A DNA stretch of 64,000 bases. Source: Squalus acanthias (Eukaryota). Positions 9,431 to 63,204 of this stretch are shown one piece after another; within the stretch, counting starts at the first letter, position 1; each line of letters begins with the position of its first letter. The notes under the pieces were generated by a model. That model saw only the letters and a list, made by a program, of their open reading frames with translations. It made no database searches and was not told the DNA's origin. The position numbers and the translations under genes were made by a program. The stretch covers positions 48,114,001 through 48,178,000 of the forward strand of contig CM059432.1 in NCBI GenBank assembly GCA_030390025.1, given 5' to 3'.

Positions 9431-9504
9431 TATGGCAGGGGGCTAGAAACCTATGTAGTGAAATAGAGGAAAGTGAAAGGCAGACAGAAATAAATGGTAA
9501 AAGG

Positions 9505-12372: not shown

Positions 12373-13764
12373 ATTGGAGGATCAGCCATGATCTCATTAA
12401 ATGGCGGAGCAGGCTCGAAGGGCCGGATGGCCTACTCCTGCTCCTATCTTCTATGTATCTATGTATCTATGTAAGAAGAATTGAAAAAGTGAATATTTTA
12501 GTTTGTCACTGTAAAGCAAAAAAATAGGACTCTACTATATTTTGACTTTGAGTTTGGAGAGATACTATATAATATATACTTGAAAAACTGATAAGAAATA
12601 TCTATATCTCACTCGTCTTTTTATCACATAATCATGTTATAGGAGGGCAATTTATTTACCCTACTTCTATCAACCCGAACATACCTCCCCACTTTTCCAG
12701 GAATTAAACTTGAATCCAAACGGCAAAACTCAACATTGGAAGCAGAAGATATGGGGCCCAAAACTCCAATCAGGAGCTGGGCAGAACAAAAGCAGATTGC
12801 TTCTATGGGAACCGGAAAATGGAGCGGAACCCGGTTCCTCCAAGATTCAGTATTGTTCGAGCAGCTGAGCAATTATCTGGTGGGAGCGAGAGGGCGAATC
12901 TTCCAACCACACCCCCTCACGCCAAGGGCGTATTTTCAGAAGAGGCCCCAGGTTACCCAGGGAATTCTGCTCAGTATATCATTAGCAGGCCTCCGTACAA
13001 CACTCGCCAGCTGAGACCCCAGAAAAGTCTCTAGAAGTCTTACAGTTAAAATTAAAGTAACTAGTCCTGGAGGGGATTGAGTATCATAACTTTAGTGACC
13101 CAGCACTCTCTTAGGAGCAATATTTCAATTATTTTCCTCTTTACTTTCGGCCCTTCTTTGGCACTGTTCCCATGTTCCTGGCTGCTGTCAGGGCAGGCGA
13201 TACTGATGGACCCTTACAGGCAAGAGTCGGACACTGAGTATGCAAAGTGGCCTATCCCCGCAATTTAAGACAGGTCTGGGTCTCCCTGCATGGGCGGACT
13301 TAGAGCCGGCTCCACCGCACTTCTGCTGGTGGAGTGGCCCAAATGAAATTTCATAAACATTTCAATTTATAACATTTTAAGTGACAACTATCTTTTATAT
13401 ATTGGCGTGCTTGCAAGGATATGTTCCTTTACCCTTTTGTCTCCTTTATTTAATTTCTTTTCTCCAAAGGGCCTTGCGATGTTTTGTACATTAAAGACGT
13501 TATATAAATGTAACTTGTTGCTGTTTTGTTTTGACATGGGCTGTGGTTTATTACAGTTACAGGAAATCATGACAGCTGTTTCGCTAAAAAAAACCTGTTG
13601 AGTTCCTTCTCTAATTACTAAAACAAAATTATAGCTCTGAGTTCCAACAGATGAGTAAGGAGTTTCCTGAAAGACTTGAAGTATGATTCTTTGTGATGAA
13701 GGGCTGCAAATAATGACTTTCTGCAGTGTAATTTTTCACATGTTTGTAACTGTGACTGAAGCAA

Positions 13765-29264: not shown

Positions 29265-32200
29265 TTAACAGGCGTGATCCACGAGCAGCGTGGACCCCAT
29301 GGACGAGCACTTTGGAGGGGGAGGGCGAAAACGGGATGAGGTCCTAAAAGCAGAATATAGGGAGTTAGGAGGTAAATTAAAAAAGAGGACCTCAAAAGTA
29401 GTAATCTCAGGATTGCTACCAGTGCCACGTGCTAGTCAGAGTAGAAATAGGAGGATATTTTAAATGAATACGTGGCTAGAGGAATGGTGCAAGGGGGAGG
29501 GATTCAAATTCCTTGGACATTGGAACCGGTTCTGGGGGAGGTGGGACCAGTACAAACGGGACGGTCTGCACCTGGGCAGGGCCGGGACCGATGTCCTAGG
29601 GGGAGTGTTTGCTAGTGCTGTTGGGGAGGGTTTAAACTAAAGTGGCAGGGGGTTGGGAACCTGAGCAGGGAGACAGAGGAAAGGGAAATAAGGATAAAAT
29701 CTAAAGACAGGAAGGAGAAAAACAAAAGTAGAAGACAAAGAACTCAACGGTTTAAATCAAACATGGTCATAGTAAATAATAATTCATATAGGTCTGAAAG
29801 CGTTAAAAAAATAAGCCTGAAGGCTTTGTGTCTTAATGCAAGGAGCATTCGGAACAAGGTGGATGAATTAGCTGCACAAATAGAGGTAAATGAATACGAT
29901 TTGATTGGGATTACAGAAACATGGCTCCAGGGGGGCCAAGGCTGGGAACTCAACATCCAGGGTTATTCAATATTTAGGAAAGATAGGCAAAAAAGAAAGG
30001 GAGGTGGGGTAGCATTGCTGGTTAAAGAGGGGATTAACACAATTGAAAGGAAGGATATTAGCTCTGATGATGCGGAATCTGTATGGGTAGAACTGAGAAA
30101 TAACAATGGGCAGAAAACGTTAGTGAGAGTGGTATATAGAACTCCAAACAGTAATACGGAGGTTGGGGACGGCATTAAAAGGGAAATTCGAGAAGCATGC
30201 AGTAAGGGCACAGCAGTCATCATGGGTGACTTTAATCTACATATAGATTGGGCTAACCAAATTAGTAAAAATACTGTGGAGGAGGAATTCCTAGAATGTT
30301 TACGAGATGGTTTTCTGGAACAATATGTCGAGGAACCAACCAGAGATCAGGCCATCTTAGACTGGGTATTATGTAACGAGAAAGGATTAATTAGCAATCT
30401 TGTTGTACGAGGCCCCTTGGGTCAGAGTGATCATAATATGATAGAATTCTTCATTAGGATGGAGAGTGAAGTAGTTGAATCAGAGACTAGGGTCCTGAAT
30501 TTAAATAAAGGAAACTACGATGGTATGAGGCGCGAATTGGGTAGGATTGATTGGGGAATGTCACTCAAGGGGTTGACGGTGGATAGGCAATGGCAAACAT
30601 TCAAAGACTGCATGGATGAACTACAGAATTTGTACATCCCAGTGTGGCATAACAATAAAACAAAAAGGGTGACTCAACCGTGGCTAACAAGGGAAATTAG
30701 GGATAGCATAAGATCCAAGGAGAGGGCATATAAATTGTCTAGAAAAAGCGGTAGCCCTGAGGATTGGGAGCAGTTTAGGATTCAACAAAGGAGGACAAAG
30801 GGATTAATTAAGAAGGGGAAAATAGAATATGAAAGTAAGCTTGCTGGGAACATAAAAACTGACTGTAAGAGCTTTTATAGATATGTGAAGAGAAAAAGAT
30901 TAGTGAAATCAAGTGTAGGTCCCTTGCAGTCAGAAGCGGGGGAAGTTATAATGGGGAACAAAGAAATGGCAGCCCAATTAAATGCATATTTTGGTTCTGT
31001 CTTCACAAAGGAGGACACAAATAAGCTCCCAGAGATGTTGGAGAACATACGGTCTGATGAAAGGGAGGAACTGAAAGAAATCAGTATTTGCAGCGAAATG
31101 GTGTTAGGGAAATTGACGGTATTGAAGGCCGATAAATCCCCAGGGCCTGATAATCTACATCCTAGGGTACTTAAGGAAGTGGCCCTAGAAATAGTAGATG
31201 CATTGCTGATCATCTTCCAACATTTGATGGAATCTGGAACTGTACCCATGGATTGGAGAGCAGCTAATGTTACCCCACTATTCAAAAAGGGTGGTAGAGA
31301 GAAAACGGGGAATTACAGACCGGTAAGCCTGACATCGGTAGTGGGGAAAATGCTAGAGTCCATTATAAAGGATGTAATAGCTGAGCATTTGAAAAACAGT
31401 GACAGGATCGGACAAAGTCAACATGGATTTACAAAAGGTAAATCGTGCTTGACTAATCTACTGGAATTTTTTGAGGATGTAACTGGGAAAATAGATAAGG
31501 GAGAACCAGTAGATGTGGTGTATTTGGACTTTCAAAAGGCTTTCGATAAGGTCCCGCATAAGAGATTAGCGGGTAAAGTTAAGGCACATGGGATTGGGGG
31601 CAAGGTATTGACTTGGATAGAGAACTGGTTGGCGGACAGAAAGCAGAGAGTAGGAATTAATGGGTCTTTTTCCGAGTGGCAAGCAGTGACTAGTGGGGTA
31701 CCGCAGGGATCGGTCCTTGGACCCCAGCTATTCATAATATACATTAATGATCTAGATAAGGGAATTAAATGTAATATCTCCAAGTTTGCAGACGACACAA
31801 AGCTGGGTGGGAGTGTGTGCTGCGAGGAGGATACCGAGAAACTCCAGGATGATCTGGACAGGTTGGGTGAGTGGGCAGAAGCATGGCAGATGCAATATAA
31901 CGTGGATAAGTGCGAGGTTATCCACTTTGGTGTCAAAAACAGAAAGGCAGACTATTATCTGAATGGCAATAGATTGGGAGAAGGGGAAGTGCAACGAGAC
32001 CTGGGTGTCCTTGTGCACCAGTCGCTGAAAGTAAGCATGCAGATGCAGCAGGCGGTGAAGAAGGCAAATGGTATGTTGGCCTTCATAGCGAAAGGGTTTG
32101 AGTATAGGAACAGGGATGTCCTGCTGCAGTTGTACAGGGCCTTGGTGAGACCACACCTTGAGTACTATGTGCAGTTTTGGTCGCCTTATCTGAGGAAGGA

Positions 32201-32725
32201 TGTTCTTGCCATGGAAGGAGTTCAGCGAAGATTCACAAGGCTGATACCTGGGATGGCAGGAATGACATATGAAGAGAGATTGGGTCGATTGGGCTTATAC
32301 TCGCTGGAGTATAGAAGAATGTGAGGGGATCTCATCGAAACATATAAAATTCTGACAGGTCTGGACAAACTAGATGCAGGAAGAATGTTCCCGATGGTCG
32401 GAGAGTCCAGAACCAGGGGTCATAATCTACGGATAACGGGTAAACCATTTAGGACAGAAATGAGGAAGAATTTCTTCACCCAGAGAGTGGTGAACCTGTG
32501 GAATTCTCTACCACAGAAGGTAGTTGAGGCCAAGTCATTAAATATATTCAAGGATGAGTTAGATATATTTCTTAAAGCTAAAGGTATCAAGGGATATGGG
32601 GAGAAGGCAGGTACAGGGTACTGAGTTTAGATGATCAGCCATGATCTCATCGAATGGCGGAGCAGGCTCGAGGGGCCGAATGGCCTACTCCTGCTCCTAT
32701 CTTCTATGTTTCTATGTTTCTATGT
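29265..32725 (+). mobile_element. 5'-truncated CR1 LINE
   Basis: 3' half of the ORF1 esterase region, ORF2, 3' UTR and (TTCTATGT)n tail. Confidence 0.93.
29763..32624 (+). pseudogene. CR1 ORF2p (APE-RT) with a single late nonsense codon at 32322-32324
   Basis: 853-aa ORF continues in frame into 32385-32624. The RRM*GD position corresponds to RRLRGD in the 10360 copy. Confidence 0.92.
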
Positions 32726-33833
32726 AAAAGGTAGGTTTAAAACCATTATTAAGGATCTGTCAACAAGCCAATTGGGTCGCCCGCCTCTGCGGGTCGGGTC
32801 CGATCCGAGATCACAGATGCACCATTGGGAAAGGCATGTTTTAGCGGGATGACAGCGTATTCCCAACCTGCTGTCAAAAAAATCAAATTTTGCACCCGAC
32901 CCACCGCTGATCCCGCCCACTAACCCCCCCGGAAAATTCCGGCTATAGTTTACATTGTGCCACATAGTAGTATGACATGACTGATACCAAATCACTCATG
33001 CAAATCTTGAAGTGAAGCATAGCTTATCTGAATATTCAATTAAAAGATGAAGGGACACACAAAGTAAAATTGAAAGCTAATATTCGCAATTAAAAGAATA
33101 AATTTTGAATTTTGTATGAAAGCTTAAGATTATAAAAAAAGTGAACTATGTATGTTAAATGCTGAAAAAGTATTTCAGTAGTCAATGGGTTAATGTAGGT
33201 TTAAACTGGGATTATCATTTGAGAAATAACTTGATATACTTTTAAGAAAACATGAAGAGCTCCAAGCTATGAATATTTATAATGACTAGCTAAGCGTTTA
33301 ATTAACACTCTGACTCACATGAAAATTAATAGCAATCAAACCAATAGATAAAGGCTTAAAAGGGGGGGGGGACTGGAAATCATGAACAAAAATAGAAAAT
33401 GGTAAAAGTTCTGATTTGGCCCATGGCATCTGTGACAGGTCTAGTCCCTTAAACATTGCTATCCACTTTAATCCCATTTCTTTATTTTTCTCAGTGTTCT
33501 TTTACATTTTTCCTTATCAAATACTTTTCAATTCCCTTTTAAATTCTCTGCTTTAATAGCCATTTACAGTAAAGCATTCCATGCTCTAATAATCTTCTTT
33601 CTGAAAATTTGTCTTCTAATTTACCCCTTAATTCTTATGATCTGGAGACCATGCCCTCGATTTGTCAACCATTGGAAACAACCTTTCACTATTTACCCTT
33701 TCAAAACTTTCCATAATTTTGAAAACCTCTGTTAGATTCTGCCTTAAACTTCCCTATTCCAATGAAAAAAGATTCTGTTTTTCCGAGCCTTTCTTCATTA
33801 ATATAGCCTCTCATTCCTGGCATTATTCTAGTG

Positions 33834-35960
33834 TGTAAGGGGTTCGGTCGTGGGTGCTTGTGCGGGGTTAAGCCTTCGTCGCCTAATCCTATTGCTTGCT
33901 CTTGTCTCCGGCCAGCCTTGTTGCAATAAGCACCTGTGAGTGGTTCGACCCACTCGCCCTTACGGTTCTAACACTGGACTTAGGTGCAAGAGCAGTAATG
34001 CAGAGAAAACTCAAATAGACCCGGTTGAATAGTACGAAATGGAAATCTTTATTGCATAAGGGCAACACGGTGGCATAGTGGTTAGCACTGGTGCCTCACA
34101 GCGCCAGGGACCCGGGTTCGAATCTGGCCTCGGGTGACTGTCTGTGTGGAGTTTGCACATTCTCCCCGTGTCTGCGTGGGTTTCCTCCGGGTGCTCCGGT
34201 TTCCTCCCACAGTCCAAAAATGTGCGGGTTAGGTTGATTTGGCTATGATAAATTGACCCTTAGTGTTAGGGGGGGATTAAATATGTGGGGTTACGGGGAT
34301 AGGATAGGAAGGGATATGTTAGGGGGAATTAAATACGTGGGGTTACGGGGATAGGGTGGGATATGTGTTGGTGCAGGCTCGATGGGGATTCTGGTGAGAA
34401 AGCAGGGACAGGGTACTGGATTTGGATGATCAGCCATGATTGTATTGAATGGTGGAGCAGGCTCGATGGGCCGAATGGCCTACTCCTGCTCCTAGTTTCT
34501 ATGTTTCTATAACGTCCAAAATCATGAAGTACATGTCATAGGCACAAATTAATGACAGTACAAGTATACATACATTCATAAAACTTGGTCTAGGGTAATG
34601 AGGAACGCACGGCACATCGTAAAAAGGGGAACACATTATATTTATCCTTAATAAAACCACCCTCCCCTATCAATACCTACACTAATCTAGATTTGTAGGA
34701 TCGAGAAACATGCTCACCACTCGTGATACTTCGGAGAATTTTAAAGTGAGGCGCTCGGCTCGTTTCGCTGCAGCGCCTGACTGTCACGTGTTGAAAAGGG
34801 TCTCTGTACCCCACTTGTTTATCTGCTCTGCTCCGGCTAGCAGGCTGGATCGTCTGTTGTCATGAAGAACTGTGTAGAGCTCGGACACTTGGTAGAATTC
34901 AAACAAGAGTCTTCCTGTACCAGTTCGTGTAGTATTCGGTAAAACTCGAAGATGAGGTTTTACCGGTTCGTGCAGTAACTTATAGAGTTCAAAAATGGTC
35001 TATATATTTTCGGGCGCGGTCGGGGTTTACTGACCGCGGCGGCACGTGTAGTCTTCTTCTTCTCTTCTCGTCTCGTCTCGTCTCGTCTCTTCTGGCCTTC
35101 GGGTCCAGACACCGTTTACCGACCCTCGGGATGGTGCACCCGATCACTTGCCTTTGTTGAGGCGGCTCGTTCCGTTTGAGCTCCAACCAACATTCGAAGT
35201 CCAGCTCTCAAAAGAGCTTCAGCAGTCAGCAACAAGACAAGAGGTCGACTCCAAGTGGATCAGCGGAATAAGAGCCCGGAGAATAAGAGTTCAGCCCGAG
35301 TCAAAAGTCAGCAGAGATAAGAGACCGATGGACATTTGTTCAGTTAAGTTATAGTGCTGGGTTCCCTTATCTCCCGCCCAAATCTTAATGTTCATCTTTT
35401 GTAAAATCTTGGCGCTCAAAATTCCCAGTATGGGGTGATTCTGTCTGTAATGGGTTTCGGTAACACTTGTAACTGGCCAAATACCCGTTAATGTTTTTCC
35501 CATTGTGGAACCGGCTAGGAGCCTCCCTGACGGGGTTTTGGGGGCCTCCGAATACTTGTGTAAGCACCCGAGAATGGCTCTCTCATTGTAGAGCTGTGGG
35601 GAATTTGCGTATTGATGTATCTGGATGGGCCTTTGATTGCCCAGTACAATAGTCCTTACTTGTGCATGGAAAACGATTCCAGCACTTATATCTCTTGCTA
35701 TTGTGTCGAATGCAGACAGGTCGCATCCTGTCTTTATCAATGTTTGCTGAGTATTATCCAATCTTATACTGAAATGTTTATTCGAACGCCATCTTGTCTG
35801 CCCACTGAAAATTCTGGAAACTTCTGCCACGAGGTGTGGCGGCCATTTTACAGGCTTCTTGTGTCCCTTTTAATCATGACAGCATTTCGTTTAAATAAAC
35901 TGCTTAAACGAATCTGTATTTCTCTCGTTATTTTGAATCGTGATATTTGCGAACTTTACA
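33834..35960 (-). mobile_element. LTR-A: LTR with 4-bp TSD AGTG, carrying a V-SINE insertion
   Basis: TGTA...TACA termini. AGTG at 33830-33833 and 35961-35964. The flanks rejoin as an old CR1 (CATTATTCTAGTG|AATCTACACTGC). Confidence 0.95.
34060..34508 (+). mobile_element. V-SINE (HE1-like) with CR1-derived 3' tail
   Basis: A box TGGCATAGTGG, B box GGTTCGAATCT, V-domain-like GTGGAGTTTGCACATTCTCCCCGTGTCTGCGTGGGTTTCCTCCGG. Tail matches the CR1 3' UTR. ATAA is duplicated, and the insertion is absent from LTR-B. Confidence 0.9.
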
Positions 35961-36590
35961 AGTGAATCTACACTGCATCCTTACCATGGATCAATTATAT
36001 TTTCTTTAATGGGGTGCTGAGAACTGCATGCAATACTCCAACTGTGGCTCAACCAAAGTATTGTACAAATTCAACATCACTTCCTTCCTGTGTAGGTGTC
36101 AACCTTGGCTCAGTGGTAGCACCCTTTATCTCTAAATCAGAAGGTTGTGGGTTCAAGTCCCACCCCAGAGACATGAACACATAATCTAAGCTGACATCTC
36201 AGTGCAGGACTGAGGGAGTGCTGCACTTTCAGAAGGTGCCAGTTGTTAAGATAAGACATTAAACCGAGAATGGTAAGTCTGCCCTCTAAGGTAGGTGTAA
36301 AAGATCCTCTGGCATTAATTTGAAAATGAACAGGGAAGTTCTCCCTGGTTTCTGAGGGATCACCACTATTCTTTGTATAAGCACTTTCTTTTATTTTTGT
36401 ACTATCTCTCACCTCTTTTGTTGACCAAGGTTGTTTAATTACACAAGTAGAGCTCTTGCCCTTTAGGGAGTACAGGACTTGTATTCTACCAAATACTAAT
36501 TTGAACACCTCCCACTGTTTATCTGAAGTTTTATCCATTAACTATTCTCCCCAGTTTACAGAGGTCAATTTCTGCCTCATCCTTTCAAAG
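35961..36590. repeat. ~630-bp host flank duplicated at 43991-44620
   Basis: Near-identical (about 3 differences by eye). Old CR1 plus Deu-SINE-like head. Confidence 0.95.
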
Positions 36591-36765
36591 GCAGCCAAAG
36601 TCAAGGAAAAAAATAATCCAACAACTATTTTAAAAATACAAAAGTTAAAATAACCAAAAACAACTCTTTTAAAATACAAAGTTCCAAACTTGGTTACATA
36701 TCTTCATAACTAACAATCAATTACAAAACACACATGGGAAAATGGAGCGGCGTCATCTTGGCCGT

Positions 36766-39104
36766 TTACGCGGCGCTTTCCTCGTGCACGCGCACGTAAC
36801 GTTCTCTCCACTCTCCTGTGTTCTCCTGCTTTGTGAGGCGCTTGCCTCTCTTGCAGTGCACGACCAATAGGTACACTACAATTATTACTTGGCACACAAC
36901 TAAAATGTGGGAGGCTATCCTAATCCATGAAGGCACTTCAATATTGGTGAACAGATCCCACCACGGTGGGATTACTATGTCTAGAATTTCTGTCCCTATC
37001 TCGACAGTCTTTTGTTCTAGGGTGTAAAAATGTTTTTGCGATACCGCGACGGCTTTCAAAAGCTTGGTGAGGTGTTCAGGGAGAGGGGGAATGATGTATC
37101 CGAAATGCGCGACGAATCGCTGCAAGTCGGTAAAATTCTCTTTTACTGTTAGATGAACAGTGGATGGTTCAGGGATCGGGACAATTCGCTGCTGTGCCAC
37201 TTGAACTTCAGCCCTGGGTTTAAAACAGAAACTGCTGTCACTCACCGGACACCGGCTACGGCTTCCATGCTGGTAGTGTTGCGCTGCAGTGGTAACGCAA
37301 TATGTTCCACCCCCTATGTATGCCACCTGCGGAGGCACATGATCTTGTGTCATTGCCTCCATGGTGCAATTCATGGGCTTGGCGCCAGCCGTTCTGAACC
37401 CGCATTGTGGTGTTAAAAAGGCATTCAAGTGCTGGGGACACAGTATCATGTGTGCTCCCCGGCCACGACAACCCGATAGGTCTGTACCTGTCATCGTTTG
37501 CTCCCAGCGGATGACGTAAGGTGGGACCGCTGCGTAGCGAATGTGGGCTCCCCCCTGAATGACACCAATGTTCTCCACCCGATACACCGGGGCGGGCTTT
37601 GCTGTGTCGCCCAAGACCGGCATACGTAGTACTATACCCATGATGGTATGGTTTGACCGTCCGCAGTCCACGGGGACTGGGTATGCTTCTGAGGCTAGCC
37701 TGAGCTGGCACGGGCTTAATGCATTCTGAAAAGGGTGGAGCGCCTGCAGGTGTTTGTTACTTATCCAGGACGGGACCAAACCTTGTTTTAAATCCTCCAA
37801 ATTACTGCGGCCCTCGCCTAGTAACCATGCCCCGTATAGTACGCACACCTCGTTCTGCGCAGCTTGATCGGATGCATTCCGATCTTCCCTAATCAGGGCA
37901 TTTACCATTCTCGAATGTTTCTCCAGCTCTGCTATAATTTCCTTTAAGTGTAGCGTCATGGCCTGGTCCTCATGTAACTCAGACCCTACTACCTTGTTTT
38001 CGCTTGTGAGGATGCTTTTTAATTGTGTTTTTAAACCATTGATCTGGGTCTGCAGCTCCACGTTGTCTAGAGCGTTGACCACAGATGTCCCTGTATTAAA
38101 GGCAGTGAACATGTCGTTCACAACACCCCTTCTTTGTCTCCCCACCTGACCCAAAACTTCGTGTGGTGTGGTGTACAAGCTTGTTTTGTCAATCTCTGCA
38201 AAATCAAACTCGTAGAATTGTCTAAACATGTTTGTCAACAGGACCTGGTACAATTGTTCCGTCTCTTTGGGGCACCACTCTGGCAACCGCACCTCGGTGA
38301 GATTTAAAATCACCGAGGCCACCGCGTAATGTACCCCCTGAAATAGTATCTGGTCTGTTGGGACCAGTACCAAACCATTCCAGGGCCCCTTAGTGGTTTT
38401 AGGGCACCCTTCCTCCTGAGCCAAAACCACCGGAATCGTGGGCGGAGCCTTGCGTGGGCGCGTGATGAGTTCAGTGGCGTTTACCGGGATCGGAGAGTAT
38501 GGAGCTCCGCACCCCCTGGTGCTGACATCCCACCTCATCCCTTTCCCGTTATCCTGCCACTGGTTTACGAAAAATATGGATATACCCTTGGGGCAAACGT
38601 ACTTCGATCCCCACATACAAACATATATTCCCACCATTTGTCCCAACAGACTTTCAATTGTCCGTTAGTCCCCGTAATTGTCCGATGGGTATTGTTACCC
38701 AATCGCTCCCACTCGACCGAGGAATTTCTCATATTCTTGCTCAATTTCCGTAACCACCACCATCGGCTCAATGGGACCTTCCCATTGCATGTCAAACAAA
38801 TCCTTTTGCCGACGGTGACGCTGATTCTGGGTGCAATGATTCTCACTCTGGGGCACATCAAAGAAGTCTCTTTGTAGGCAAATCCGGATGCGCTGGAGTA
38901 TTCCATTGAATTCGTTCCCAGCCATCCCGGCCACCTTCCCTTGTGGAAATAAGTGGCGGTCTCCTCAGCCTTTCACTCCCCGGTCCCATCCGTCGCGATG
39001 GGGGCCGTGTCCCCGGAGCAACCAAACACAACGACATCCTTGGTGAGGCCCCGATAGGCCAATCCATATCCGATCGCTGCGAGCACTATCAGAATCCGTT
39101 CCAT
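36766..39104 (-). pseudogene. env: Envelope glycoprotein: signal peptide, Ig-like domain, F-type class I fusion protein, TM anchor (one TGA and one frameshift)
   Basis: ATG at 39104 reads MERILIVLAAIGYGLA. TGA at 38973-38975 is in frame with ORF 38565-38906, then a frameshift near 38640 leads into the 626-aa ORF. That ORF has furin site RQRR (38128-38139), heptad repeats, a Cys-rich region and TM IASHILVVCQVIIVVYLLVVHC. Confidence 0.85.
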
Positions 39105-39380: not shown

Positions 39381-40493
39381 TCAAATTCTGCGAAGGCTGT
39401 TGCGAGCTTTTCCCAACGGTGGGAGGGCACTGACCCCTTCCTTTGATCCACCGCAGCCTGTCGCTGCTGCGCTGGGACTGGGATCTCCCTGGGCTGCCTT
39501 GACCTTGAACTTACGCCTGGGGGCGCGCGGGGGACTTGACCACACCTTCCTGGGCTTGGGTGTCCGACCTGACCTACGGAGGGCTACATTGGGCAAGATT
39601 TCCAGGGCCGACGGACCGGGTACTGAGACTTCCACCGTCGCGGCCTGTGGTCCCACCACAGCCGCTGGCTCCGTCTCCCCTGGCTCCGCCTCCCTGAACT
39701 CGGGATTTGCAGTTTCTGGTACCACCCTACTTGACCCAGTATGTGGTCCTCCACTCACAATCCCTACCTCCCCCAAGGGCAAGACTTCTAAGGCTGACGG
39801 ACCGGGTTCCGAGACTTCCACCGTCACGACCTGTGGTCCTACCACAGCCGCTGGCTCCGTCTCCCCTAGCTCCGCCCCCCTGGGCTCGGGACCTGCAGTT
39901 TCTGATTCCACCCTGTGTGGATCTCCGCTCACAATCCCTATCTCCCCTACGCTTGAGTCGAGGGCGAACCTTTCGTCCTCCGATCTCAGCACCTCTCCGA
40001 TCGGGTCACTATCTTGGTCGAGCTCCTCGAGCTCTTCCTCATCGGAATCCCAACCCCAAGAAAAGATCTTACACTTTCCTAGAATGTCCTCTCCCCTCAC
40101 GCAGGCTGCTTTACCGGTCTGTGTGCCCTGCGGTCCGACCCGGGGCTGCGAGTCCCCACTCGCAGGTCTGGCCCCTGTGGTTGGCCCCTGTGCACCCGGC
40201 TTATACAACTTGCACTGGTTTAAATCCTCAGACTCCCTGCTTCTGGCTACCCTGCAGGCTGCCTTTATATCTCTAAGCTGCCCTTCTAGCCCATCTATTT
40301 TCCCCATTAAGCGGGCGTTCTCCTCCCGTAAGGCCTGCTCTCTAAGCTGCCCTTCTAGCCCGTCTACTTTCCCCATTAAGCGGGCGTTCTCCTCCCGCAG
40401 GGCCTGCTCTTTTAACCTGGCCTCCTTACAGGAGACCCCCTCCTGTGCGCGTTTTCCTAGGGGACACAGGTAGGCAGGCTGCACCGGTTCTAG
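39381..40493 (-). CDS. ORF-X: unknown coiled-coil/acidic/repeat/basic protein in frame with gag
   Basis: 370 open codons directly after the gag TAA, with no ATG at the start of the frame. Frame-preserving internal duplications (69 bp; 58/62 aa). Confidence 0.65.
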   Translation of the reverse strand, partial: LEPVQPAYLCPLGKRAQEGVSCKEARLKEQALREENARLMGKVDGLEGQLREQALREENARLMGKIDGLEGQLRDIKAACRVARSRESEDLNQCKLYKPGAQGPTTGARPASGDSQPRVGPQGTQTGKAACVRGEDILGKCKIFSWGWDSDEEELEELDQDSDPIGEVLRSEDERFALDSSVGEIGIVSGDPHRVESETAGPEPRGAELGETEPAAVVGPQVVTVEVSEPGPSALEVLPLGEVGIVSGGPHTGSSRVVPETANPEFREAEPGETEPAAVVGPQAATVEVSVPGPSALEILPNVALRRSGRTPKPRKVWSSPPRAPRRKFKVKAAQGDPSPSAAATGCGGSKEGVSALPPLGKARNSLRRI

Positions 40494-42317
40494 TTATTGG
40501 GTACTGGTGGACGGGGTCATGACATCTGTGAGGCCGGTAGCGACTGCCACCCTTCCTTGCGAAATCATTAGGGTCCGCATGGCTCCCAACATTGATTCTA
40601 TCGCATCGGGATGGATAGGCACACCAGCTCCTTTCTCAGAGACAGGCGCTTGGGTTCGGGCTGCGGGAATTTTATCCCTGGACTCCTTCCAGGGGTTCCT
40701 ACAGTTCTTACGCCAATGACCTGTCTTCCCGCACCCGTAACAAGCACCACTGGCCTGTGGGGCGCGGTTTCCCTCCTGATGCCACTCCTTTTGAGCCGGG
40801 GCTGCGGGCCGTGCCTCATGCACCTTTCCCTTAAGGGGACGCGCTCCCGTGCTCCTAGTGTTCCGATACCCTATCGTGAGTCGATTTAGGACCGACTCCT
40901 CTGTTGTGGCGGGGTTAGTGGGATCAAACCACACTTTGGCCTGCTCCCTGACGGCTGGCAAACTGTTGGCTCCTAAACACCTGAGCCAGTGAGTTAAACC
41001 GACACCGTTCAAATAGGCGCGCGCTGGCGCACCTGGGCAGCTACGCTGGTATACTGGCCACAGCCTGTCGGCAAAAACCTTCGGGGGTTCTCCCTCCATC
41101 TCCACTGTCTGACCCAATCTAACGAACGGACCTTTGTCATCCGCCCCCAACACTTCTAGGACCTATTCCCTTAACTCCTCATAGGTCCTATTTTCCCTCT
41201 TGCTCTCGTCTGAGAGACACTGGAGGATCGAGCTATCTAATGAGAACAGCAACATTTTTGTCTTTTCCGCATCGTCGCAGCCATTAATTGCTGCGGTCTG
41301 TTCTACCTCCCTGAAGTGTACGGAAGGGTCGTCTGACTCAGACAGCTTCTGCACGTGACTAATCATTGCTCTCAGCTGGTGTGAGCTGTGAGGCAACACA
41401 AGCTGGTTCAGGACATCCCCGTCCTCCCCATTGGCTCCGTTCGGGCCCCTCTTGTGACCTGTGAGCGGACACAACGGTCCCGGCTTCGACACTACCTTTG
41501 GGGATTGTCCTACCTCGGGGACCTCCTCTTCTATTTCCACCACTTCCTCCCTTACCCAGGTTGCCGAATATCTGGGTGGCGCGGAGGGCGCAGTGGCAAA
41601 TACCTCCTCTGCTTTGTTTGGTAGGGATTTGGGGAATTCCCTACCCACCTGTGGCTGGTGTGCTGACGGGCTGATGAGGCACACCATGCCGTTTGCCTTA
41701 TTCAGGGCCTCTCTAAGGTTCCGTATCTCCTTCAGGCAAACACTGTGGTCGGCTCCCTCATGCTTATCTTCGAGGGCCATCTTATATGCCGCCCTAACTC
41801 CCTTCAAGCTTTCTTCTTGGGCTCTTATCTGGGTAGCTAGGCGGGCACACTGTTCTCTAATCCTACCCTCGTTTAACTTCGCTTCCGTGACCTGACACTC
41901 TAGGTAATCTATTTTAGCCTCATGGTGGTTGGCTACTATCTGGCGTTCCTGATGTAACGCATTCAAGGATGCGATGAGTTTTTGTCCTCCCGCGACCTTT
42001 TCCTCCATCTCAACTCCCAATTCCCTGATCTGAGCTGCCTGTGCTACAATGACCTGGTCCGAAAGTTGGACTTGCTTCTTGTAGCACATCAGCCAGACCG
42101 CTTTCTCTACCGACTTCTTGTGCTCTTTACTGCCTGTCCATTTGATGGCTGCATCTAGCGGACGCTTATCCATCAGCAGGTCACTTATCCATCTTTTGGT
42201 TAAGTTAACCTTCCCAAATACATAGTCGGCTATCCTCTCATCCATCACATTTCGCCCATTCACACCAGGGTCTAAAGCATTACTCTCTCGCTGCCAGTGT
42301 ACCTTCGTGGTCGCCAT
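40494..42317 (-). pseudogene. gag: Gag (coiled coil - capsid - CCHC nucleocapsid), ~607 codons, one in-frame TAG at 41163-41165
   Basis: ORFs 41163-42317 and 40494-41153 share a frame. MHR-like QTVEMEGEPPKVFADRLW. Zinc knuckle CYGCGKTGHWRKNC (C-X2-C-X4-H-X4-C) at 40701-40742. Confidence 0.88.
42299..42316 (-). promoter_or_regulatory. Primer-binding site, tRNA-Arg(UCG)-type
   Basis: TGGCGACCACGAAGGTAC lies 5 nt after the LTR end. It is complementary at 17/18 nt to the vertebrate tRNA-Arg-UCG 3' end ...GUCCCUUCGUGGUCGCCA, recalled from memory. Confidence 0.75.
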
Positions 42318-42321
42318 TTTC

Positions 42322-43990
42322 TGTAATGGGTTCGGTCGTGGGTGCTTGTGCGGGGTTAAGCCTTCGTCGCCTAATCCTATTGCTTGCTCTGGTCTCCGGC
42401 CAGCCTTGTTGCAATAAGCACCTGTGAGTGGTTCGACCCACTCACCCTTACGGTTCTAACACTGGACTTAGGTGCGAGAGCAGTAATGCAGAGAAAACTC
42501 AAATAGACCCGGTTGAATAGTACAAAATGGAAATCTTTATTGCATAACGTCCAAAATCATGAAGTACATGTCATAGGCACAAATTAATGACAGTACAAGT
42601 ATACATACATTCATAAAACTTGGTCTAGGGTAATGAGGAACGCACGGCACATCGTAAAAAGGGGAACACATTATATTTATCCTTAATAAAACCACCCTCC
42701 CCTATCAATACCTACACTAATCTAGATTTGTAGGATCGAGAAACATGCTCACCACTCGTGATACTTCGGAGAATTTTAAAGTGAGGCGCTCGGCTCGTTT
42801 CGCTGCAGCGCCTGACTGTCACGTGTTGAAAAGGGTCTCTGTACCCCACTTGTTTATCTGCTCTGCTCCGGCTAGCAGGCTGGATCGTCTGTTGTCATGA
42901 AAAACTGTGTAGAACTTGGACACTTGGTAGAATTCAAACAAGAGTCTTCCTGTACCAGTTCGTGTAGTATTCGGTAAAACTCGAAGATGAGGTTTTACCG
43001 GTTCGTGCAGTAACTTATAGAGTTCAAAAATGGTCTATATATTTTCGGGCGCGGTCGGGGTTTACTGACTGCGGCGGCACGTGTAGTCTTCTTCTTCTCT
43101 TCTCGTCTCGTCTCGTCTCTTCTGGCCTTCGGGTCCAGACACCGTTTACCGACCCTCGGGATGGTGCACCCGATCACTTGCCTTTGTTGAGGCGGCTCGT
43201 TCCGTTTGAGCTCCACCCAACATTCGAAGTCCAGCTCTCAAAAGAGCTTCAGCAGTCAGCAACAAGACAAGAGGTCGACTCCAAGTGGATCAGCGGAATA
43301 AGAGCCCGGAGAATAAGAGTTCAGCCCGAGTCAAAAGTCAGCAGAGATAAGAGACCGATGGACATTTGTTCACTATAGTTATAGTGCTGGGTTCCCTTAT
43401 CTCCCACCCAAATCTTAATGTTCATCTTTTGTAAAATCTTGGCGCTCAAAATTCCCAGTATGGGGTGATTCTGTCTGTAATGGGTTTCGGTAACACTTGT
43501 AACTGGCCAAATACCCGTTAATGTTTTTCCCATTGTGGAACCGGCTAGGAGCCTCCCTGGCGGGGTTTTGGGGGCCTCCGAATACTTGTGTAAGCACCCG
43601 AGAATGGCTCTCTCATTGTAGAGCCGTGGGGAATTTGCGTATTGATGTATCTGGATGGGCCTTTGATTGCCCAGTACAATAGTCCTTACTTGTACATGGA
43701 AAACGATTCCAGCACTTATATCTCTTGCTATTGTGTCGAATGCAGACAGGTCACATCCTGTCTTTATCAATGTTTGCTGAGTATTATCCAATCTTATACT
43801 GAAATGTTTATTCGAACGCCATCTTGTCTGCCCACTGAAAATTCTGGAAACTTCTGCCACGAGGTGTGGCGGCCATTTTACAGGCTTCTTGTGTCCGTTT
43901 TAATCATGACAGCATTTCGTTTAAATAAACTGCTTAAACGAATCTGTATTTCTCTCGTTATTTTGAATCGTGATATTTGCGAACTTTACA
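42322..43990 (-). mobile_element. LTR-B, 5' LTR (1669 bp)
   Basis: TGTA...TACA termini. TATATA at 43036-43041 and AATAAA at 42536-42541 on the minus strand. ~99% identical to LTR-A apart from the SINE. Confidence 0.95.
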
Positions 43991-45326
43991 CGTGAATCTA
44001 CACTGCATCCTTACCATGGATCAATTATATTTTCTATAATGGGGTGCTGAGAACTGCATGCAATACTCCAACTGTGGCTCAACCAAAGTATTGTACAAAT
44101 TCAACATCACTTCCTTCCTGTGTAGGTGTCAACCTTGGCTCAGTGGTAGCACCCTTTATCTCTAAATCAGAAGGTTGTGGGTTCAAGTCCCACCCCAGAG
44201 ACATGAACACATAATCTAAGCTGACATCTCAGTGCAGGACTGAGGGAGTGCTGCACTTTCAGAAGGTGCCAGTTGTTAAGATAAGACATTAAACCGAGAA
44301 TGGTAAGTCTGCCCTCTAAGGTAGGTGTAAAAGATCCTCTGGCATTAATTTGAAAATGAACAGGGAAGTTCTCCCTGGTTTCTGAGGGATCACCACTATT
44401 CTTTGTATAAGCACTTTCTTTTATTTTTGTACTATCTCTCACCTCTTTTGTTGACCAAGGTTGTTTAATTACACAAGTAGAGCTCTTGCCCTTTAGGGAG
44501 TACAGGACTTGTATTCTACCAAATACTAATTTGAACACCTCCCACTGTTTATCTGAAGTTTTATCCGTTAACTATTCTCCCCAGTTTACAGAGGTCAATT
44601 TCTGCCTCATCCTTTCAAAGTCAGCCTTACCTAAATTTAAAACCTTGGTTCATGACTCACACTTCTCCCTTTCAAACCTAAGGATAATTCCGAGGATAGT
44701 TAGACTAAAACATTGTGTAGTTCCAAGAATATTCCTTATCTGCCTTTTTAATCTTCAACATTTAAAGGTTAAATTATTTCTGCAGCTGTTATCTGAAGGC
44801 GTGTATTTGAAAGCTGAAAAGGACATTCATAAAAGAGCTAAATAGCCACCTGTACAAAAACAATACTCAACTAAAAGAGGTGTCTTAATATACTTAAATA
44901 GGAAATGCATTTAGATTAAGAAACCAGCTGCTAATATGTGCCACAACTACAGCAAAATTAGACATTAGAAATATTTCATTGCGTTGTTTATGGGATAATT
45001 CATCAGTGGACTGAGGAGTGGAACAATCACACGCAGAATGTAATGCAGGAGCAGTGAATGGAGCAGTTAGGTGAAGTGGGAGCTGGAGCAAGGATTGACT
45101 GGGACACCAGACACCAAGGTGAATCTGGAATGGAATGGGGTCAGCTTACTGTTATCTGGTAACTGAGAATGACAAGGTGTTGGGCCTGAGGAGGGTGCAC
45201 AAATTCCTGGGGCTGAAGCCAGGAGTGGAGGCATTATTAAAGCTGAGACTGGGAACAGAGATGTTCCTAGGGTTGAGAACACAAACAGACGTGTTGCTAG
45301 AGCTGAGGATGGGAGTGGTACTGAAG

Positions 45327-60198: not shown

Positions 60199-60634
60199 TT
60201 ATTTCTCCACTACTACTGCTGCTATTCTGGGGAAGGGAAGAGGGATGAAGTGATGGGTGTGTATGACTGTATCAAAAAAAATAGTGAAGTAAACACAAAA
60301 GAATTCTGTACTGCCTAAGTGGTCCAAGTGCCTGGCAAAGATTTCCGCAACCCACAAAAGCATCATCTTGTCAACTACCTCTTTTTTTTCCTTCTCCCGG
60401 ATTGCACAGCCTTTGAAATAGAACCACAATTTCTTGTTGATACTAATTACCTGAATCGTCCTAGCTAACTACTTAATTGTGACAGCTGAGGGATTTCTCA
60501 TTAAAAGGAAAGAATTAATTATTAACTTTTTGTACAACATTTCAGAGAAGTAGAGTTCTTTCCTTGGAGCATCTTCCAGCAGCTAGCTAAAAGCTGGGTG
60601 CCAGCTGGGAGTGGGCAGAGCTACTACTGCCTCT

Positions 60635-61246
60635 CAGGGCCGGTCTTACGGGTGGGCGACCACCCAGGGCGCTGTGGTCAGGGGGGCGCCATGGTCAAGA
60701 GGGTCTGACATTAATGGCATCTTTCTCTGTGAAGAACTTGACTATCTCCAAAGTCTGCTTCCAATGGACTGTAGTGCTCCACAAGAAGTGCAAACTTCAA
60801 GTTTCAAGAGCAAGTTCCCAAACACATGGATAGCGCTCAGGATCCTGTTAACCATGTCCGTATCGGTGGCGAGCAGCGAACGGAGCTTCTCAAAGTTGAA
60901 GCTCATAAAAACATATTTGCGATCGGCCATGGGAGACAACAGGTTGTCTGTGCTGGCCATCCTGTCTATCGAGAATGATGTGGCTCAAAATATCTTGGTG
61001 AACAAAGTTTTTTATTTGTTATTTTTATTTATTAGTTTAGTGTTTAATTTAATATTTAGTTTATTTGTCACTTAGCTATAATGTTATTTTTTTATGTCTT
61101 GTATCATTTATTATTTAAATTATAAAATTCTTTTGAAATTACAGCTTTATTTCTGAAACTTTCGCTCATACTACTATACACTTAAACTCAAAGAGTGCCA
61201 AAATACAAGTTCGCCCGGGGCGCCATTTTCCCTAAGGCCAGCCCTG
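60635..61246 (+). mobile_element. Non-autonomous hAT transposon retaining the C-terminal dimerisation-domain segment
   Basis: TIRs CAGGGCCGG / CCAGCCCTG. Perfect 8-bp TSD CTGCCTCT (60627-60634, 61247-61254). FPNTWIALRILLTMSVSVASSERSFSKLKLIKTYLRS. Confidence 0.92.
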
Positions 61247-61450: not shown

Positions 61451-63204
61451 TGTAAAGTTTCGCAATTATCGCGATTCGAAATAACGAGATAGAAGCAGAT
61501 TCGTTTGATCAGTTTATTTAAACGAAATGCTGTCATGATTAAACAGGACACAGAAGCCTGTAAAATGGCCGCCGCGCATCATGGCAGAAGTTTCCAGAAA
61601 CACAGTGGGCAGACAAGATGGCGTTCGAATAAACATTTTCAATATAAGACGGGGTCATACTCGATAAGCACTGATAAAGACAGGATGCAACCTATTTGCA
61701 TTTGTGACAATAGCAAAAGATACGAGTGCTGGAATCGTTTTCCATGCACAAGTAAGGACCATTGTACTGGGCAATCGAAGGCCCATCCAGACACATCAAT
61801 ACACAAATACCCCCACGGCTCTACAATGAGAGAGACATTGACGGGTGATTAAACAAGTATTCGGGGGCCCCCAAAACCAGTCAGGGAGACGATTCATACG
61901 ATCCTGGCTGGGTCAACAATGGGGAAAACATTAACGGGTAGTTGGCCAGTTTCAGGTGCTACCGAAACCCGTTAAAGACAAGAATCGCCCCATGCTGGGA
62001 GTTTTTGAGCGCCAATATTTCACAAAGGACAAACATTAAGATTTGGGCGGGAGATAAGGAAACACAGCACTATAACTATACTGAACAAATGTCCATCGGT
62101 CTCTTATCTCTGCTGACTCTTATTCTCCCGGCTGGCCTCTTATTCCCTTGATTCGACTCTTATTCTCCTGACTCGCTCGATCGCAGGCTGAAGCTCTTCT
62201 CTAGGGCTGGACTCTGTTGACTCTGGACTTTTAGCCGTACTGGACGGTTATTCGAATGTTGGGTGGAGCTCAATCGGAACGAGCTGCCTCGACAAGGGCA
62301 AGTGACCGGGTGCACCATCCCGAGAGTCGGTAAACGGTGTCTGGACCCGAAGGCCCAACAAGACAAGACGAAATGACAAGAAAAGAAGAAGAATCCACGT
62401 GCTGCCGCGGTCAGTAAACCCCGACCGCGCCCGAAAATATAGGACTCATTTCTTGAATTCTACGGGTTATTGCACGAATCGGTTTTGGGTCCATCGAATT
62501 CCTCATAACAACAAGAAAGACTCTTCATTGAATTCTACTGACAACTGGTGCCGGTACAGGAAGACTTTTCTTTGAGTTCTACAACCGGGCCCGAGTTCTG
62601 TCGAGTTCTTCATGACAACGGGGAGCCCGGCCTGCTTGCCGCAGCAGCGAAGATAAACAAGTGAGGTACAGAGACCCCTCCAAACACGTGACAGTCAGGC
62701 GCTGCAGCGAACGAGCCGAGTGCCTCACTTAAAAATTCTCTGAAGTATCACGAGTGGTGAGCATGTTTCCCGATCCTACAAATCTAGATGTAGTGTAGGT
62801 ATTGATAGGGGAGGGTGGTTTTATTAAGGATAAAGTATAATGTGTTCCCCTTTTTACGATGTGCCGTGCGTTCTTCATTACCATAGACCAAGCTTTATGA
62901 ATGTATGTATACTTGTACTCTCGTTAATTTGCGCCTATGACATGTACTTCATGATTTTGGACGCTATGCAATAAAGATTTCCATTTCGTACTATTCAACC
63001 GGGTCTATTTGAGTTTTTCTCTGCATTACTGCTCTCGCACCTAAGTCCAGTGTTAGAACCGTAAGGGCGAGTGGGTCGAACCACTCACAGGTGCTTATTG
63101 CAACAAGGCTGGCCGGAGACCAGAGCAAGCAATAGTATTAGGCAACGAAGGCCTAACCCCGCACCAGCACCGTCTGCGATACAAGCACGACAAAACCCCT
63201 TACA
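61451..63204 (+). mobile_element. Solo LTR (1754 bp) of the gag/env element family, TSD GAGC
   Basis: TGTAAAG...CCCTTACA termini. GAGC at 61447-61450 and 63205-63208. Diverged reverse complement of LTR-B. Confidence 0.95.

What the first reader, a model, noticed from the sequence alone, without database searches (positions are those of the whole stretch)
36766..38400. Envelope core has F-protein architecture, not retroviral SU/TM
Seen: furin site RQRR, then GVVNDMFTAFNTGTSVVNAL and a long heptad region. About 400 residues of ectodomain with a Cys-rich block and second heptad precede the TM, followed by a short basic tail. There is no CX6CC or immunosuppressive motif. Known: this long post-cleavage subunit is typical of paramyxo/pneumovirus F and baculovirus F/errantivirus Env. 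The 626-codon stretch is uninterrupted, so the fusogen is close to intact.
Basis: partly seen in the sequence, partly recalled or inferred. Interest (0 to 1): 0.7.

Follow-up and report, generated by a model that had tools for sequence, protein, structure and literature searches.

The report
F-type envelope of dead shark retrovirus
This envelope gene of a dead, polymerase-less retrovirus in a shark- or ray-type genome is predicted to fold like the fusion protein of measles- and RSV-type viruses, a design already known from foamy viruses and lokiretroviruses and here seen in a further, apparently undescribed envelope family.

Summary
The motifs are real: RQRR, then a 453-residue subunit with about 400 residues of ectodomain, a Cys-rich block, one TM, a 31-residue tail and no CX6CC. 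An AlphaFold2 model (pLDDT 68) matches paramyxo/pneumovirus F in 36 of 36 Foldseek rows shown (best E 6e-11); VIA Z 10.7 to Nipah F, 8.2 to foamy Env. Two corrections. (1) 'Not retroviral' is too strong: foamy Env shares this fold and walleye epsilonretrovirus Env models also match; 'not gamma-type' is what holds. (2) The core is open but the gene is broken: a stop and a frameshift cut off the signal peptide and a probable Ig-like head. The carrier is a gag+env provirus without pol or its own 3' LTR; the open core fits neutral decay (p 0.17-0.27). Relatives occur in sharks, a skate, coelacanth, eel and frogs. Lineage is untestable without RT: snakehead-retrovirus-like is likelier than lokiretrovirus. 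New variant of a known kind.

The parts
42322..43990 (-). 5' LTR, 1669 bp, with inverted TGTAA...TTACA ends
42299..42316 (-). Primer-binding-site-like 18-mer starting TGG, 5 nt behind the LTR, overlapping the gag start; tRNA-Arg identity is recalled, not tested
   Evidence: its first 15 bases occur in two ERV papers (search listing only)
40494..42317 (-). gag: no Gly2, N-terminal coiled coil, capsid, one CCHC zinc knuckle (about 40698-40748); broken by a TAG at 41163-41165
   Evidence: 59% identity over 597 columns to skate protein P0006; zf-CCHC E 7e-4
39381..40493 (-). 370-codon acidic/coiled-coil frame in frame behind the gag stop, where pol should be; no enzyme domain
   Evidence: weak likeness of residues 41-83 to the Gag coiled coil, E 2e-4
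38976..39104 (-). True env start with signal-peptide-like segment, cut off from the rest by a TGA at 38973-38975
38610..38840 (-). Probable Ig-like domain in front of the F core, interrupted by a frameshift near 38630
   Evidence: Pfam Ig_3 E 0.038-0.057 here, 0.0027 in relative P0070, all under the curated cut-off; fold test inconclusive
38128..38406 (-). F2-like subunit (residues 87-179): long strands 98-121, helix 133-155, ending in the furin site
38128..38139 (-). Furin-type site RQRR
   Evidence: RX[KR]R at this place in P0012, P0013, P0017
38065..38127 (-). Putative fusion peptide (residues 180-200), mildly hydrophobic, low model confidence
37786..38064 (-). Heptad repeat A / long helices (about residues 201-293)
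37225..37470 (-). Cys-rich beta block (residues 399-480), F domains I/II; C433, C456, C480 invariant in 10 of 10 aligned relatives
36985..37083 (-). Heptad repeat B helix (residues 528-560)
   Evidence: aligned to the C-terminal helix of post-fusion F (1ztm, 8tve)
36862..36918 (-). Transmembrane anchor (residues 583-601)
36766..36861 (-). 31-residue cytoplasmic tail (KRGKR, YVRV) and stop
36597..36765 (-). T-rich 3' untranslated remnant, cut off at 36597 before any polypurine tract or 3' LTR
35961..36596 (.). Host DNA (with a SINE) duplicated at 43991-44626, 4 differences in 636 bp: mark of a tandem duplication
33834..35960 (-). Solo LTR of the same family with AGTG on both sides (4-bp target duplication) and a SINE inserted at 34056-34508; 19 differences in 1669 bp to the 5' LTR

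Best explanation
The stretch encodes the fusion core of a retroviral Env of the F-type ('class Ib') design shared by paramyxo/pneumovirus F and foamy-virus Env. In the ancestral virus (steps inferred from family knowledge, none shown by experiment): the signal peptide led the precursor into the ER; it trimerised; furin cut RQRR into an N-subunit (probable Ig-like attachment head, Pro/Thr stalk, F2-like strands and helix) and a 453-residue F1-like C-subunit, the two staying interwoven in domains I-III; on a trigger (receptor binding by the head and/or low pH) heptad A extended, threw the fusion peptide into the target membrane, and heptad B zipped back to a six-helix bundle. This copy no longer does so: the signal peptide is cut off by a stop and a frameshift, gag carries a stop, pol is absent and the 3' LTR is lost. 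It is a decaying member of a helper-dependent gag+env family of cartilaginous fish, most likely (about 0.6) of the snakehead-retrovirus-like branch.
For: Shown: motif layout; model with confident F2 strands and Cys-rich core; Foldseek PDB 233 matches at E<=0.001, 36 of 36 rows shown are paramyxo/pneumovirus F, best 5.9e-11; VIA 49 of 50 rows F and 1 foamy Env, best Z 10.7 (rmsd 5.1, 292 aligned), foamy Z 8.2 (rmsd 5.7, 273 aligned); Foldseek-independent search: 8 of the top 9 rows are F or foamy Env; atlas features 0.93-0.96 to Gypsy/Baculo_F/Fusion_gly clusters; profile of 40 relatives finds foamy Env first, E 0.0014. Lesions. No pol domain in the three element frames scanned. Three lesions missing the 621-codon core by chance: p 0.17-0.27. 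SnRV-like Gag traits (no myristoylation, coiled coil, one zinc finger) as listed in PMC2717909 passages match the window's Gag.
Against: No Pfam family at E<=1 and no PDB sequence hit at E<=10 for the protein itself. Z-scores are modest (8-10.7), TM-scores 0.2-0.38 and rmsd large; one unrelated coiled coil reaches Z 8.2. pTM is 0.52 and 196 of 632 residues are under pLDDT 50, including the fusion peptide. AlphaFold may lean to solved F structures. A smaller profile (10 rows) found no viral hit, and the third hit of the larger one is a HERV-K TM piece (E 0.026). The Ig head is unproven. No SnRV sequence was compared (retrieved none).
Confidence: 0.85

Rival explanations
1. Same fold, but the element is a lokiretrovirus derivative (like the pol-less BHIKHARI elements of zebrafish), which would extend lokiretroviruses to cartilaginous fish.
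For: Loki Env has signal peptide, RXKR, fusion peptide, coiled coil, TM and similarity to PF00523 (PMC7947760); pol-less loki derivatives with coiled-coil Gag exist (bioRxiv 2024.03.25.586437 passages); relatives occur in eel, coelacanth and Xenopus, which host loki; by eye the F2 start resembles the loki GP.SG.VL pattern (not computed).
Against: Loki RT found in 0 of 6 chondrichthyan genomes, among them Chiloscyllium punctatum, Rhincodon typus and Scyliorhinus torazame, which hold this env family; in the loki Env starts shown the F2 strand follows the signal peptide directly, whereas here about 230 residues intervene; the window's Gag has a CCHC knuckle, not seen in the one loki Gag C-terminus shown whole; no PF00523 hit.
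Confidence: 0.12
2. The element is an env-bearing Ty3/gypsy retrotransposon (errantivirus-like) with a baculovirus-F-type Env rather than a retrovirus.
For: Top atlas hits for Env are Gypsy/Baculo_F clusters, for Gag Retrotrans_gag/Ty3_capsid clusters at 0.86-0.91; baculovirus F in BFVD ranks 9, 11, 14, 27; relative P0035 hits Baculo_F at E 0.0011, under the cut-off.
Against: A survey found no intact vertebrate elements homologous to invertebrate errantiviruses (bioRxiv 2023.10.26.564294 passage); all named sequence relatives are vertebrate; a whale-shark gene model joins this env to an RNase H piece (Pfam E 4e-5) whose best PDB rows are MLV RNase H, though not significant (E 0.47).
Confidence: 0.1
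3. The open core is a host-domesticated fusogen (syncytin-like) or restriction factor kept by selection.
For: 621 codons without a lesion while gag and the env 5' end are broken; a fortuitous ATG lies at the frameshift (residue 10 of the frame).
Against: The insertion is young (LTRs 1.14%, duplicated flank 0.63% apart); chance explains the open core (p 0.17-0.27); no signal peptide is attached (best 10-residue hydrophobicity 1.6 behind that ATG against 2.7 at the true start).
Confidence: 0.04
4. The fold match is an artefact of long helices plus a generic beta core; the protein is a divergent gamma/beta-type TM or no fusogen.
For: No sequence-level family hit; coiled coils fill the lower ranks of the wide search; marginal HERV-K TM hit.
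Against: F alignments span 270-380 residues over both subunits, helix-only rows at most about 130; the one orthoretroviral TM row (HIV gp41) has Z 5.3 over 91 helical residues; C-subunit of 453 residues without CX6CC; two methods that do not use the model point the same way.
Confidence: 0.04

Closest known systems
Paramyxovirus and pneumovirus fusion protein F (PF00523; PDB 1ztm, 8dmj, 8tve, 6apb)
   Same: Predicted fold over residues 94-560: F2 strands and helix, furin site, N-terminal fusion peptide, HRA, Cys-rich domains I/II, HRB, TM, short tail.
   Different: 7-17% identity, no Pfam hit; about 230 extra N-terminal residues with a probable Ig-like domain (F has none and relies on a separate attachment protein); more polar fusion peptide; carried by an LTR element.
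Foamy-virus Env gp130 (PDB 8rm0/8rm1; PMC11468914, passages and section 9 read)
   Same: Retroviral Env with the F core; best sequence-profile hit (E 0.0014 over the Cys-rich block); Z 8.2; 4-bp target duplication as in foamy-like ERVs (PMC5210030 passage).
   Different: Foamy Env inserts a large RBD inside the N-subunit and has a membrane-spanning leader; here the F2-like part is about 90 residues without insertion and the extra domain sits in front. Gag here has a Cys-His box, which foamy Gag lacks.
Lokiretrovirus Env (Wang and Han, PMC7947760; parts 1-3 of 4 of the text, supplement part 1 and search passages read)
   Same: Signal peptide, RX[K/R]R, fusion peptide, coiled coil, TM; F-like; LTR element of fish and amphibians.
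   Different: Not found in 6 chondrichthyan genomes by RT; no N-terminal extension in the Env starts shown; PF00523 detectable there (2.2e-7) and not here; no pol here to test.
Snakehead retrovirus (SnRV) and clade Huo ERVs (PMC2717909, PMC6001957, PMC4977317 passages; PMC4422223 part 1 of 2)
   Same: Gag without myristoylation, with coiled coil and one zinc finger; in-frame stop behind gag; SnRV-like ERVs are known from elephant shark.
   Different: No direct sequence comparison possible; pol absent; SnRV Env fold not examined here.
Epsilonretrovirus Env (WEHV1 Q9WHI8, WDSV A4GTG3; predicted models in BFVD)
   Same: Fold match E 1.4e-10 and 2.1e-7; lack gamma-type hallmarks (PMC9967133 passage).
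   Different: About twice as long (1159-1317 residues); low TM-scores (0.16-0.29); model-to-model evidence only.
Baculovirus F / errantivirus F-type Env (PF12259, PF07253)
   Same: Same design; top atlas clusters and BFVD hits.
   Different: Invertebrate hosts; no Pfam hit for the window protein.

Membership tests
F-type (class Ib) fusogen | Furin site followed directly by an N-terminal fusion peptide | tested here: met
   RQRR 176-179, apolar-leaning segment 180-200; hydrophobicity modest
F-type (class Ib) fusogen | N- and C-subunits interwoven in domains I-III with a Cys-rich beta core | tested here: met
   Model residues 94-560 align to F residues about 26-484; predicted model only
F-type (class Ib) fusogen | HRA and HRB helices, C-terminal TM, short tail | tested here: met
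   HRB from the model only
F-type (class Ib) fusogen | Sequence membership of PF00523, PF12259 or PF07253 at the curated cut-off | tested here: not met
   0 families at E<=1; none of the three among the 25 of 41 families shown for 40 relatives
F-type (class Ib) fusogen | Signal peptide in frame with the ectodomain | tested here: not met
   Present at 39104 but cut off by a stop and a frameshift in this copy
F-type (class Ib) fusogen | Homotrimer | not tested
   No complex prediction was run
F-type (class Ib) fusogen | Membrane-fusion activity | not testable with these tools
Gamma-type retroviral Env | CX6CC and immunosuppressive domain in TM (PMC9967133) | tested here: not met
   None in the 632-codon frame; CX6CC in 1 of 8 long relatives, and there at the membrane anchor
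Lokiretrovirus | RT in the loki clade; dual RNase H; CGIN1-like integrase | not testable with these tools
   No pol in the element; no host genome held
Lokiretrovirus | gag-pol-env between two LTRs | tested here: not met
   pol absent, own 3' LTR lost; pol-less loki derivatives exist, so this does not exclude descent
Lokiretrovirus | Env with detectable similarity to PF00523 | tested here: inconclusive
   Fold match yes, Pfam hit no
Lokiretrovirus | Sequence or tree affinity to loki Env/Gag | not tested
   Compared by eye only; the tree holds no loki row
Foamy / foamy-like retrovirus | Gag without Cys-His box (PMC5210030) | tested here: not met
   One CCHC knuckle
Foamy / foamy-like retrovirus | RBD inserted inside the N-subunit of Env | tested here: not met
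   F2-like part 87-179 has no room for it; alignment to 8rm0 covers 273 residues across 139-852
SnRV-like retrovirus (clade Huo) | Non-myristoylated Gag with N-terminal coiled coil and one zinc finger (PMC2717909) | tested here: met
   Gag starts M-A-T; coiled-coil-type weak Pfam rows at 80-200 and zf-CCHC E 3e-6 in P0006; traits are not exclusive to the clade
SnRV-like retrovirus (clade Huo) | pro-pol in frame behind the gag stop | tested here: inconclusive
   In-frame 370-codon frame follows the stop but holds no enzyme domain
SnRV-like retrovirus (clade Huo) | RT grouping with SnRV | not testable with these tools
   No pol; scans of viral contigs retrieved no relative
Immunoglobulin superfamily (N-terminal head) | Ig beta-sandwich with B- and F-strand cysteines | tested here: inconclusive
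   Ig_3 E 0.0027-0.58 in 3 proteins, V-set E 0.045 in P0032, all under cut-off; model pLDDT 36 and no meaningful fold match

The most novel reading that the evidence does not exclude
The F-type (class Ib) envelope is the ancestral retroviral Env: foamy viruses, lokiretroviruses, walleye epsilonretroviruses and this shark/coelacanth/eel/frog family all keep it, and gamma- and beta-type SU/TM are later replacements. This family adds a third way of attaching a receptor-binding module to the F scaffold, a captured Ig-like domain in front of F2, beside the internal RBD of foamy Env and the separate attachment proteins of paramyxoviruses.
Probability: 0.3. Interest if true: 0.75.

Novelty: new variant of a known kind. 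Interest (0 to 1): 0.45.

Why it matters
Wang and Han list four scenarios for the origin of retroviral Env and cannot choose; a review passage treats the epsilonretrovirus Env as a recent replacement of a gamma-type ancestor. An F-type Env family spread over cartilaginous fish, coelacanth, eel and frogs, invisible to Pfam and to gamma-type screens, is direct material for that question, and young many-copy elements make it easy to study by computation. The copy itself is dead and gives no sign of host use. F-like retroviral envelopes as such are not new.

Tried and rejected
Sequence searches of the protein against Pfam and PDB found nothing; a 10-row profile found no viral chain. The model of the N-terminal part of natural relative P0070 was too poor to use (pLDDT 36); its fold searches gave no match at E<=0.001 and best Z 4.8, with no Ig listed near the top: no evidence either way. 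A profile of N-terminal pieces hit only the Niban part of a chimeric gene model. No host genome is held, so copy number and pol-bearing relatives could not be examined. Metagenome and viral-contig scans with env, Gag, P0022 and two primer-site patterns gave no relative: 0 of 33, 0 of 8 and 1 of 10 stretches, and tblastn with 9 proteins plus two profiles over all 64 loci found nothing. Sequencing runs: 20 runs of 8 studies hold 0.08-0.49 of the words, no RNA holder listed, none laid, so expression, copy number and the duplication junction stay unchecked by reads. Rejected: reading 33834-36596 and 42322-44626 as a 2.3-kb LTR pair; the shorter unit has inverted ends, AGTG flanks 33834-35960 on both sides, a third copy ends at the same base with its own GCTC duplication, and no purine tract precedes either candidate 3' LTR start (purine share 0.55 and 0.15). 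Rejected: the ATG at residue 10 as the real start (it lies at the frameshift; relatives continue upstream in the other frame). The tree (quick method, 20 rows, four long branches, no outgroup) places the protein with skate and sawshark relatives but says nothing on lineage. In print: 0 papers held all of epsilonretrovirus, Env, paramyxovirus, AlphaFold, fusion glycoprotein; searches listed no description of this family; subscription papers, Repbase and bioRxiv supplements were not visible, and the last 18 of 318 pages of the loki supplement were not read. PMC12690878 held none of my six terms.
Full report
1. Observation. The minus-strand frame 38664-36766 is open for 632 codons; the longest frame in 2000 shuffles averaged 101 and never passed 270. 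It holds RQRR at 176-179, the quoted peptide from 180, a 453-residue subunit behind the cut, seven cysteines in 399-480, one membrane anchor at 583-601 and a 31-residue tail; CX6CC and CXXC are absent from this frame, as are my recalled immunosuppressive-domain patterns. A simple heptad scan flags three windows in 176-259 and none near the anchor; the second heptad rests on a predicted helix at 528-560. So the anatomy is right.

2. The gene is not close to intact. Relatives show that env starts upstream: skate proteins P0002 and P0004 and sawshark P0028 align first to another frame (39104-38604, 54-71% identity) and then to the long frame from 38631. The start at 39104 carries a signal-peptide-like segment (10-residue hydrophobicity 2.7); a TGA at 38973-38975 and a frameshift near 38630 separate it from the core. 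About 621 codons of the long frame are genuine; its first residues and the ATG at position 10 are by-products of the frameshift.

3. The element. A 1669-bp LTR with inverted ends (42322-43990) is followed by a primer-site-like 18-mer overlapping the gag start (tRNA-Arg identity recalled; the motif occurs in two ERV papers, listing only). Gag (59% to skate P0006) has a coiled coil, capsid and one zinc knuckle, and one internal stop. Behind its natural stop runs a 370-codon frame without enzyme domains; there is no pol. After env the element breaks off at 36597. Next come 636 bp of host DNA that are repeated beyond the 5' LTR, and then a solo LTR flanked by AGTG on both sides. The simplest history (inference): one provirus, a tandem duplication that broke in its 3' untranslated region, and collapse of the other copy to a solo LTR. 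The LTRs differ at 19 of 1669 sites and the duplicated flanks at 4 of 636; with the assumed rates in PMC4422223 my arithmetic gives about 2.6 to 26 million years, a loose range since one LTR is a recombinant. Three lesions would all miss a 621-codon core by chance with p 0.17-0.27, so the open core is no sign of selection.

4. Relatives. The protein has no Pfam or PDB sequence hit. An exhaustive search gave 46 proteins at E<=0.001, 12 at <=1e-30. I looked up 20 of the 46: 18 are named, from sharks (Mustelus, Chiloscyllium, Heterodontus, Heptranchias, Scyliorhinus, Rhincodon, Pristiophorus), coelacanth, eel and frogs (Pelodytes, Mantella with 16 near-identical members, Xenopus); 2 are unnamed contigs. 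The nearest is the skate Rhinoraja (82% over 280 columns; quick tree), so the host is very likely a cartilaginous fish. The core cysteines are conserved (C433, C456, C480 in 10 of 10 rows).

5. Fold. AlphaFold2 with 40 sequences gave pLDDT 68, pTM 0.52, confident over about 85-160 and 270-500, poor over 1-84, 167-201 and 501-531. Foldseek: 233 PDB matches at E<=0.001, all 36 rows shown paramyxo/pneumovirus F, best 5.9e-11. VIA on those: 49 of 50 rows F, best Z 10.7 (post-fusion Nipah F, rmsd 5.1, 292 aligned), and foamy Env at Z 8.2 (rmsd 5.7, 273 aligned). A search independent of Foldseek put F or foamy Env in 8 of the top 9 rows, one coiled coil at Z 8.2 over 96 residues, and HIV gp41 at rank 36 (Z 5.3, 91 residues). 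Among predicted viral structures the top rows are lispivirus-type and other negative-strand-virus glycoproteins, a fish filovirus putative glycoprotein, baculovirus F, and the Envs of walleye epsilonretroviruses WEHV1 (E 1.4e-10) and WDSV (2.1e-7). Two methods that do not use the model agree: atlas features 0.93-0.96 to Gypsy, Baculo_F and Fusion_gly clusters, and a 40-row profile whose best PDB hits are foamy Env (E 0.0014, 0.0062), then a HERV-K TM piece (0.026) and henipavirus F (0.46). Against: scores are modest, a 10-row profile found no viral chain, and the fusion peptide is rather polar.

6. How it worked. By analogy with F and foamy Env (PMC11468914 section 9): signal-peptide entry, trimer, furin cut, interwoven subunits, trigger, HRA extension, fusion-peptide insertion, HRB zippering. 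Layout and fold are shown by sequence and prediction; trimer, trigger and activity are inferred. About 230 residues lie between the signal peptide and F2. They give weak Ig hits (Ig_3 E 0.038-0.057 here, 0.0027 in P0070; V-set 0.045 in P0032; UniRef labels P0013 'Ig-like'), and relatives show a D-x-G-x-Y-x-C pattern, but my fold test was inconclusive. I put the Ig fold at about 0.7 and a receptor-binding role at about 0.5. A pol-less gag+env element must borrow enzymes from a helper (established knowledge of non-autonomous ERVs).

7. What it works like and what it is. It works like a class Ib fusogen. It is not a gamma-type Env (CX6CC/ISD absent; PMC9967133 passages). It is not 'non-retroviral': foamy Env has the same core. 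Lokiretrovirus: possible, but loki RT was found in 0 of 6 chondrichthyan genomes, three of which hold this env, and the loki Env starts I saw have no extension (by eye). Foamy-like: Gag has a Cys-His box, which these lack (PMC5210030 passages). SnRV-like: Gag traits match those given for SnRV in PMC2717909 passages, and SnRV-like ERVs are known in elephant shark; no SnRV sequence was compared. My odds: SnRV-like 0.6, loki 0.12, gypsy-type 0.1, epsilon-like 0.1, other 0.08. Earlier unchecked notes of this scan on the same genome reach similar readings, some with RT in hand; they raised my lean to SnRV-like but are leads, not independent support.

8. Novelty and verdict. F-like Env in vertebrate retroelements is published for loki (PMC7947760) and foamy viruses (PMC11468914). 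I found no description of this family or of an F fold for epsilonretrovirus Env (open-access text only). Other papers seen as passages: bioRxiv 2024.03.25.586437, 2023.10.26.564294, 2024.03.17.585361, PMC4977317, PMC6001957, PMC12440569, PMC9040795; bioRxiv 2021.11.23.469661 parts 1-2 of 6 (gamma- and beta-type screens only in the parts read). Verdict: real, F-type, dead copy; new variant of a known kind; interest 0.45.

Noticed in passing
window 5252-5564, 33834-35960, 42322-43990, 61451-63204: Four copies of this LTR within 64 kb (the first cut by the N gap at 5565-6035; the last a solo LTR about 84% alike with a GCTC target duplication): the family is dense here.
   Followed up: partly
window 39381-40493: 370-codon frame in the place of pol, with a repeated coiled-coil unit weakly like the Gag coiled coil (E 2e-4) and an internal duplication 39591-39773/39777-39947.
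   Followed up: partly
window 42299-42317: The gag start codon overlaps the primer-binding-site-like motif; skate Gag P0006 starts with the same residues.
   Followed up: partly
window about 38800-38790 (frame 38972-38640): A CXXC (CLTC) in the probable Ig B strand, kept in P0002, P0004, P0028, P0070; likely an extra intradomain disulfide rather than the gamma-type isomerase motif (inference).
   Followed up: no
window 36790-36801: YVRV, a YXX-phi sorting-type motif, in the cytoplasmic tail, also in skate P0002.
   Followed up: no
BFVD rows: Walleye epsilonretrovirus Envs (WEHV1, WDSV) and a fish filovirus putative glycoprotein match the F-type model; not found in print.
   Followed up: partly
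P0012, P0023 (Mustelus, Pristiophorus): A sister env clade carries a different, Cys-rich N-terminal domain in place of the Ig-like one: heads seem to be swapped on the same F core.
   Followed up: no
P0003, P0005, P0028, P0035: Shark gene models fuse pieces of this env to Niban, cadherin-related, zinc-finger and F-box proteins; exonisation or annotation artefacts.
   Followed up: no
window 7417-8082: Tandem array of a 74-bp unit, copies up to 99-100% alike.
   Followed up: no
window 8480-12474 and 29328-32727: Two LINE copies 79% alike with long endonuclease/RT frames (902 and 706 codons).
   Followed up: no
window 60587-61075: Frame that by eye resembles the C-terminal dimerisation part of a hAT transposase (recalled, not tested).
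   Followed up: no
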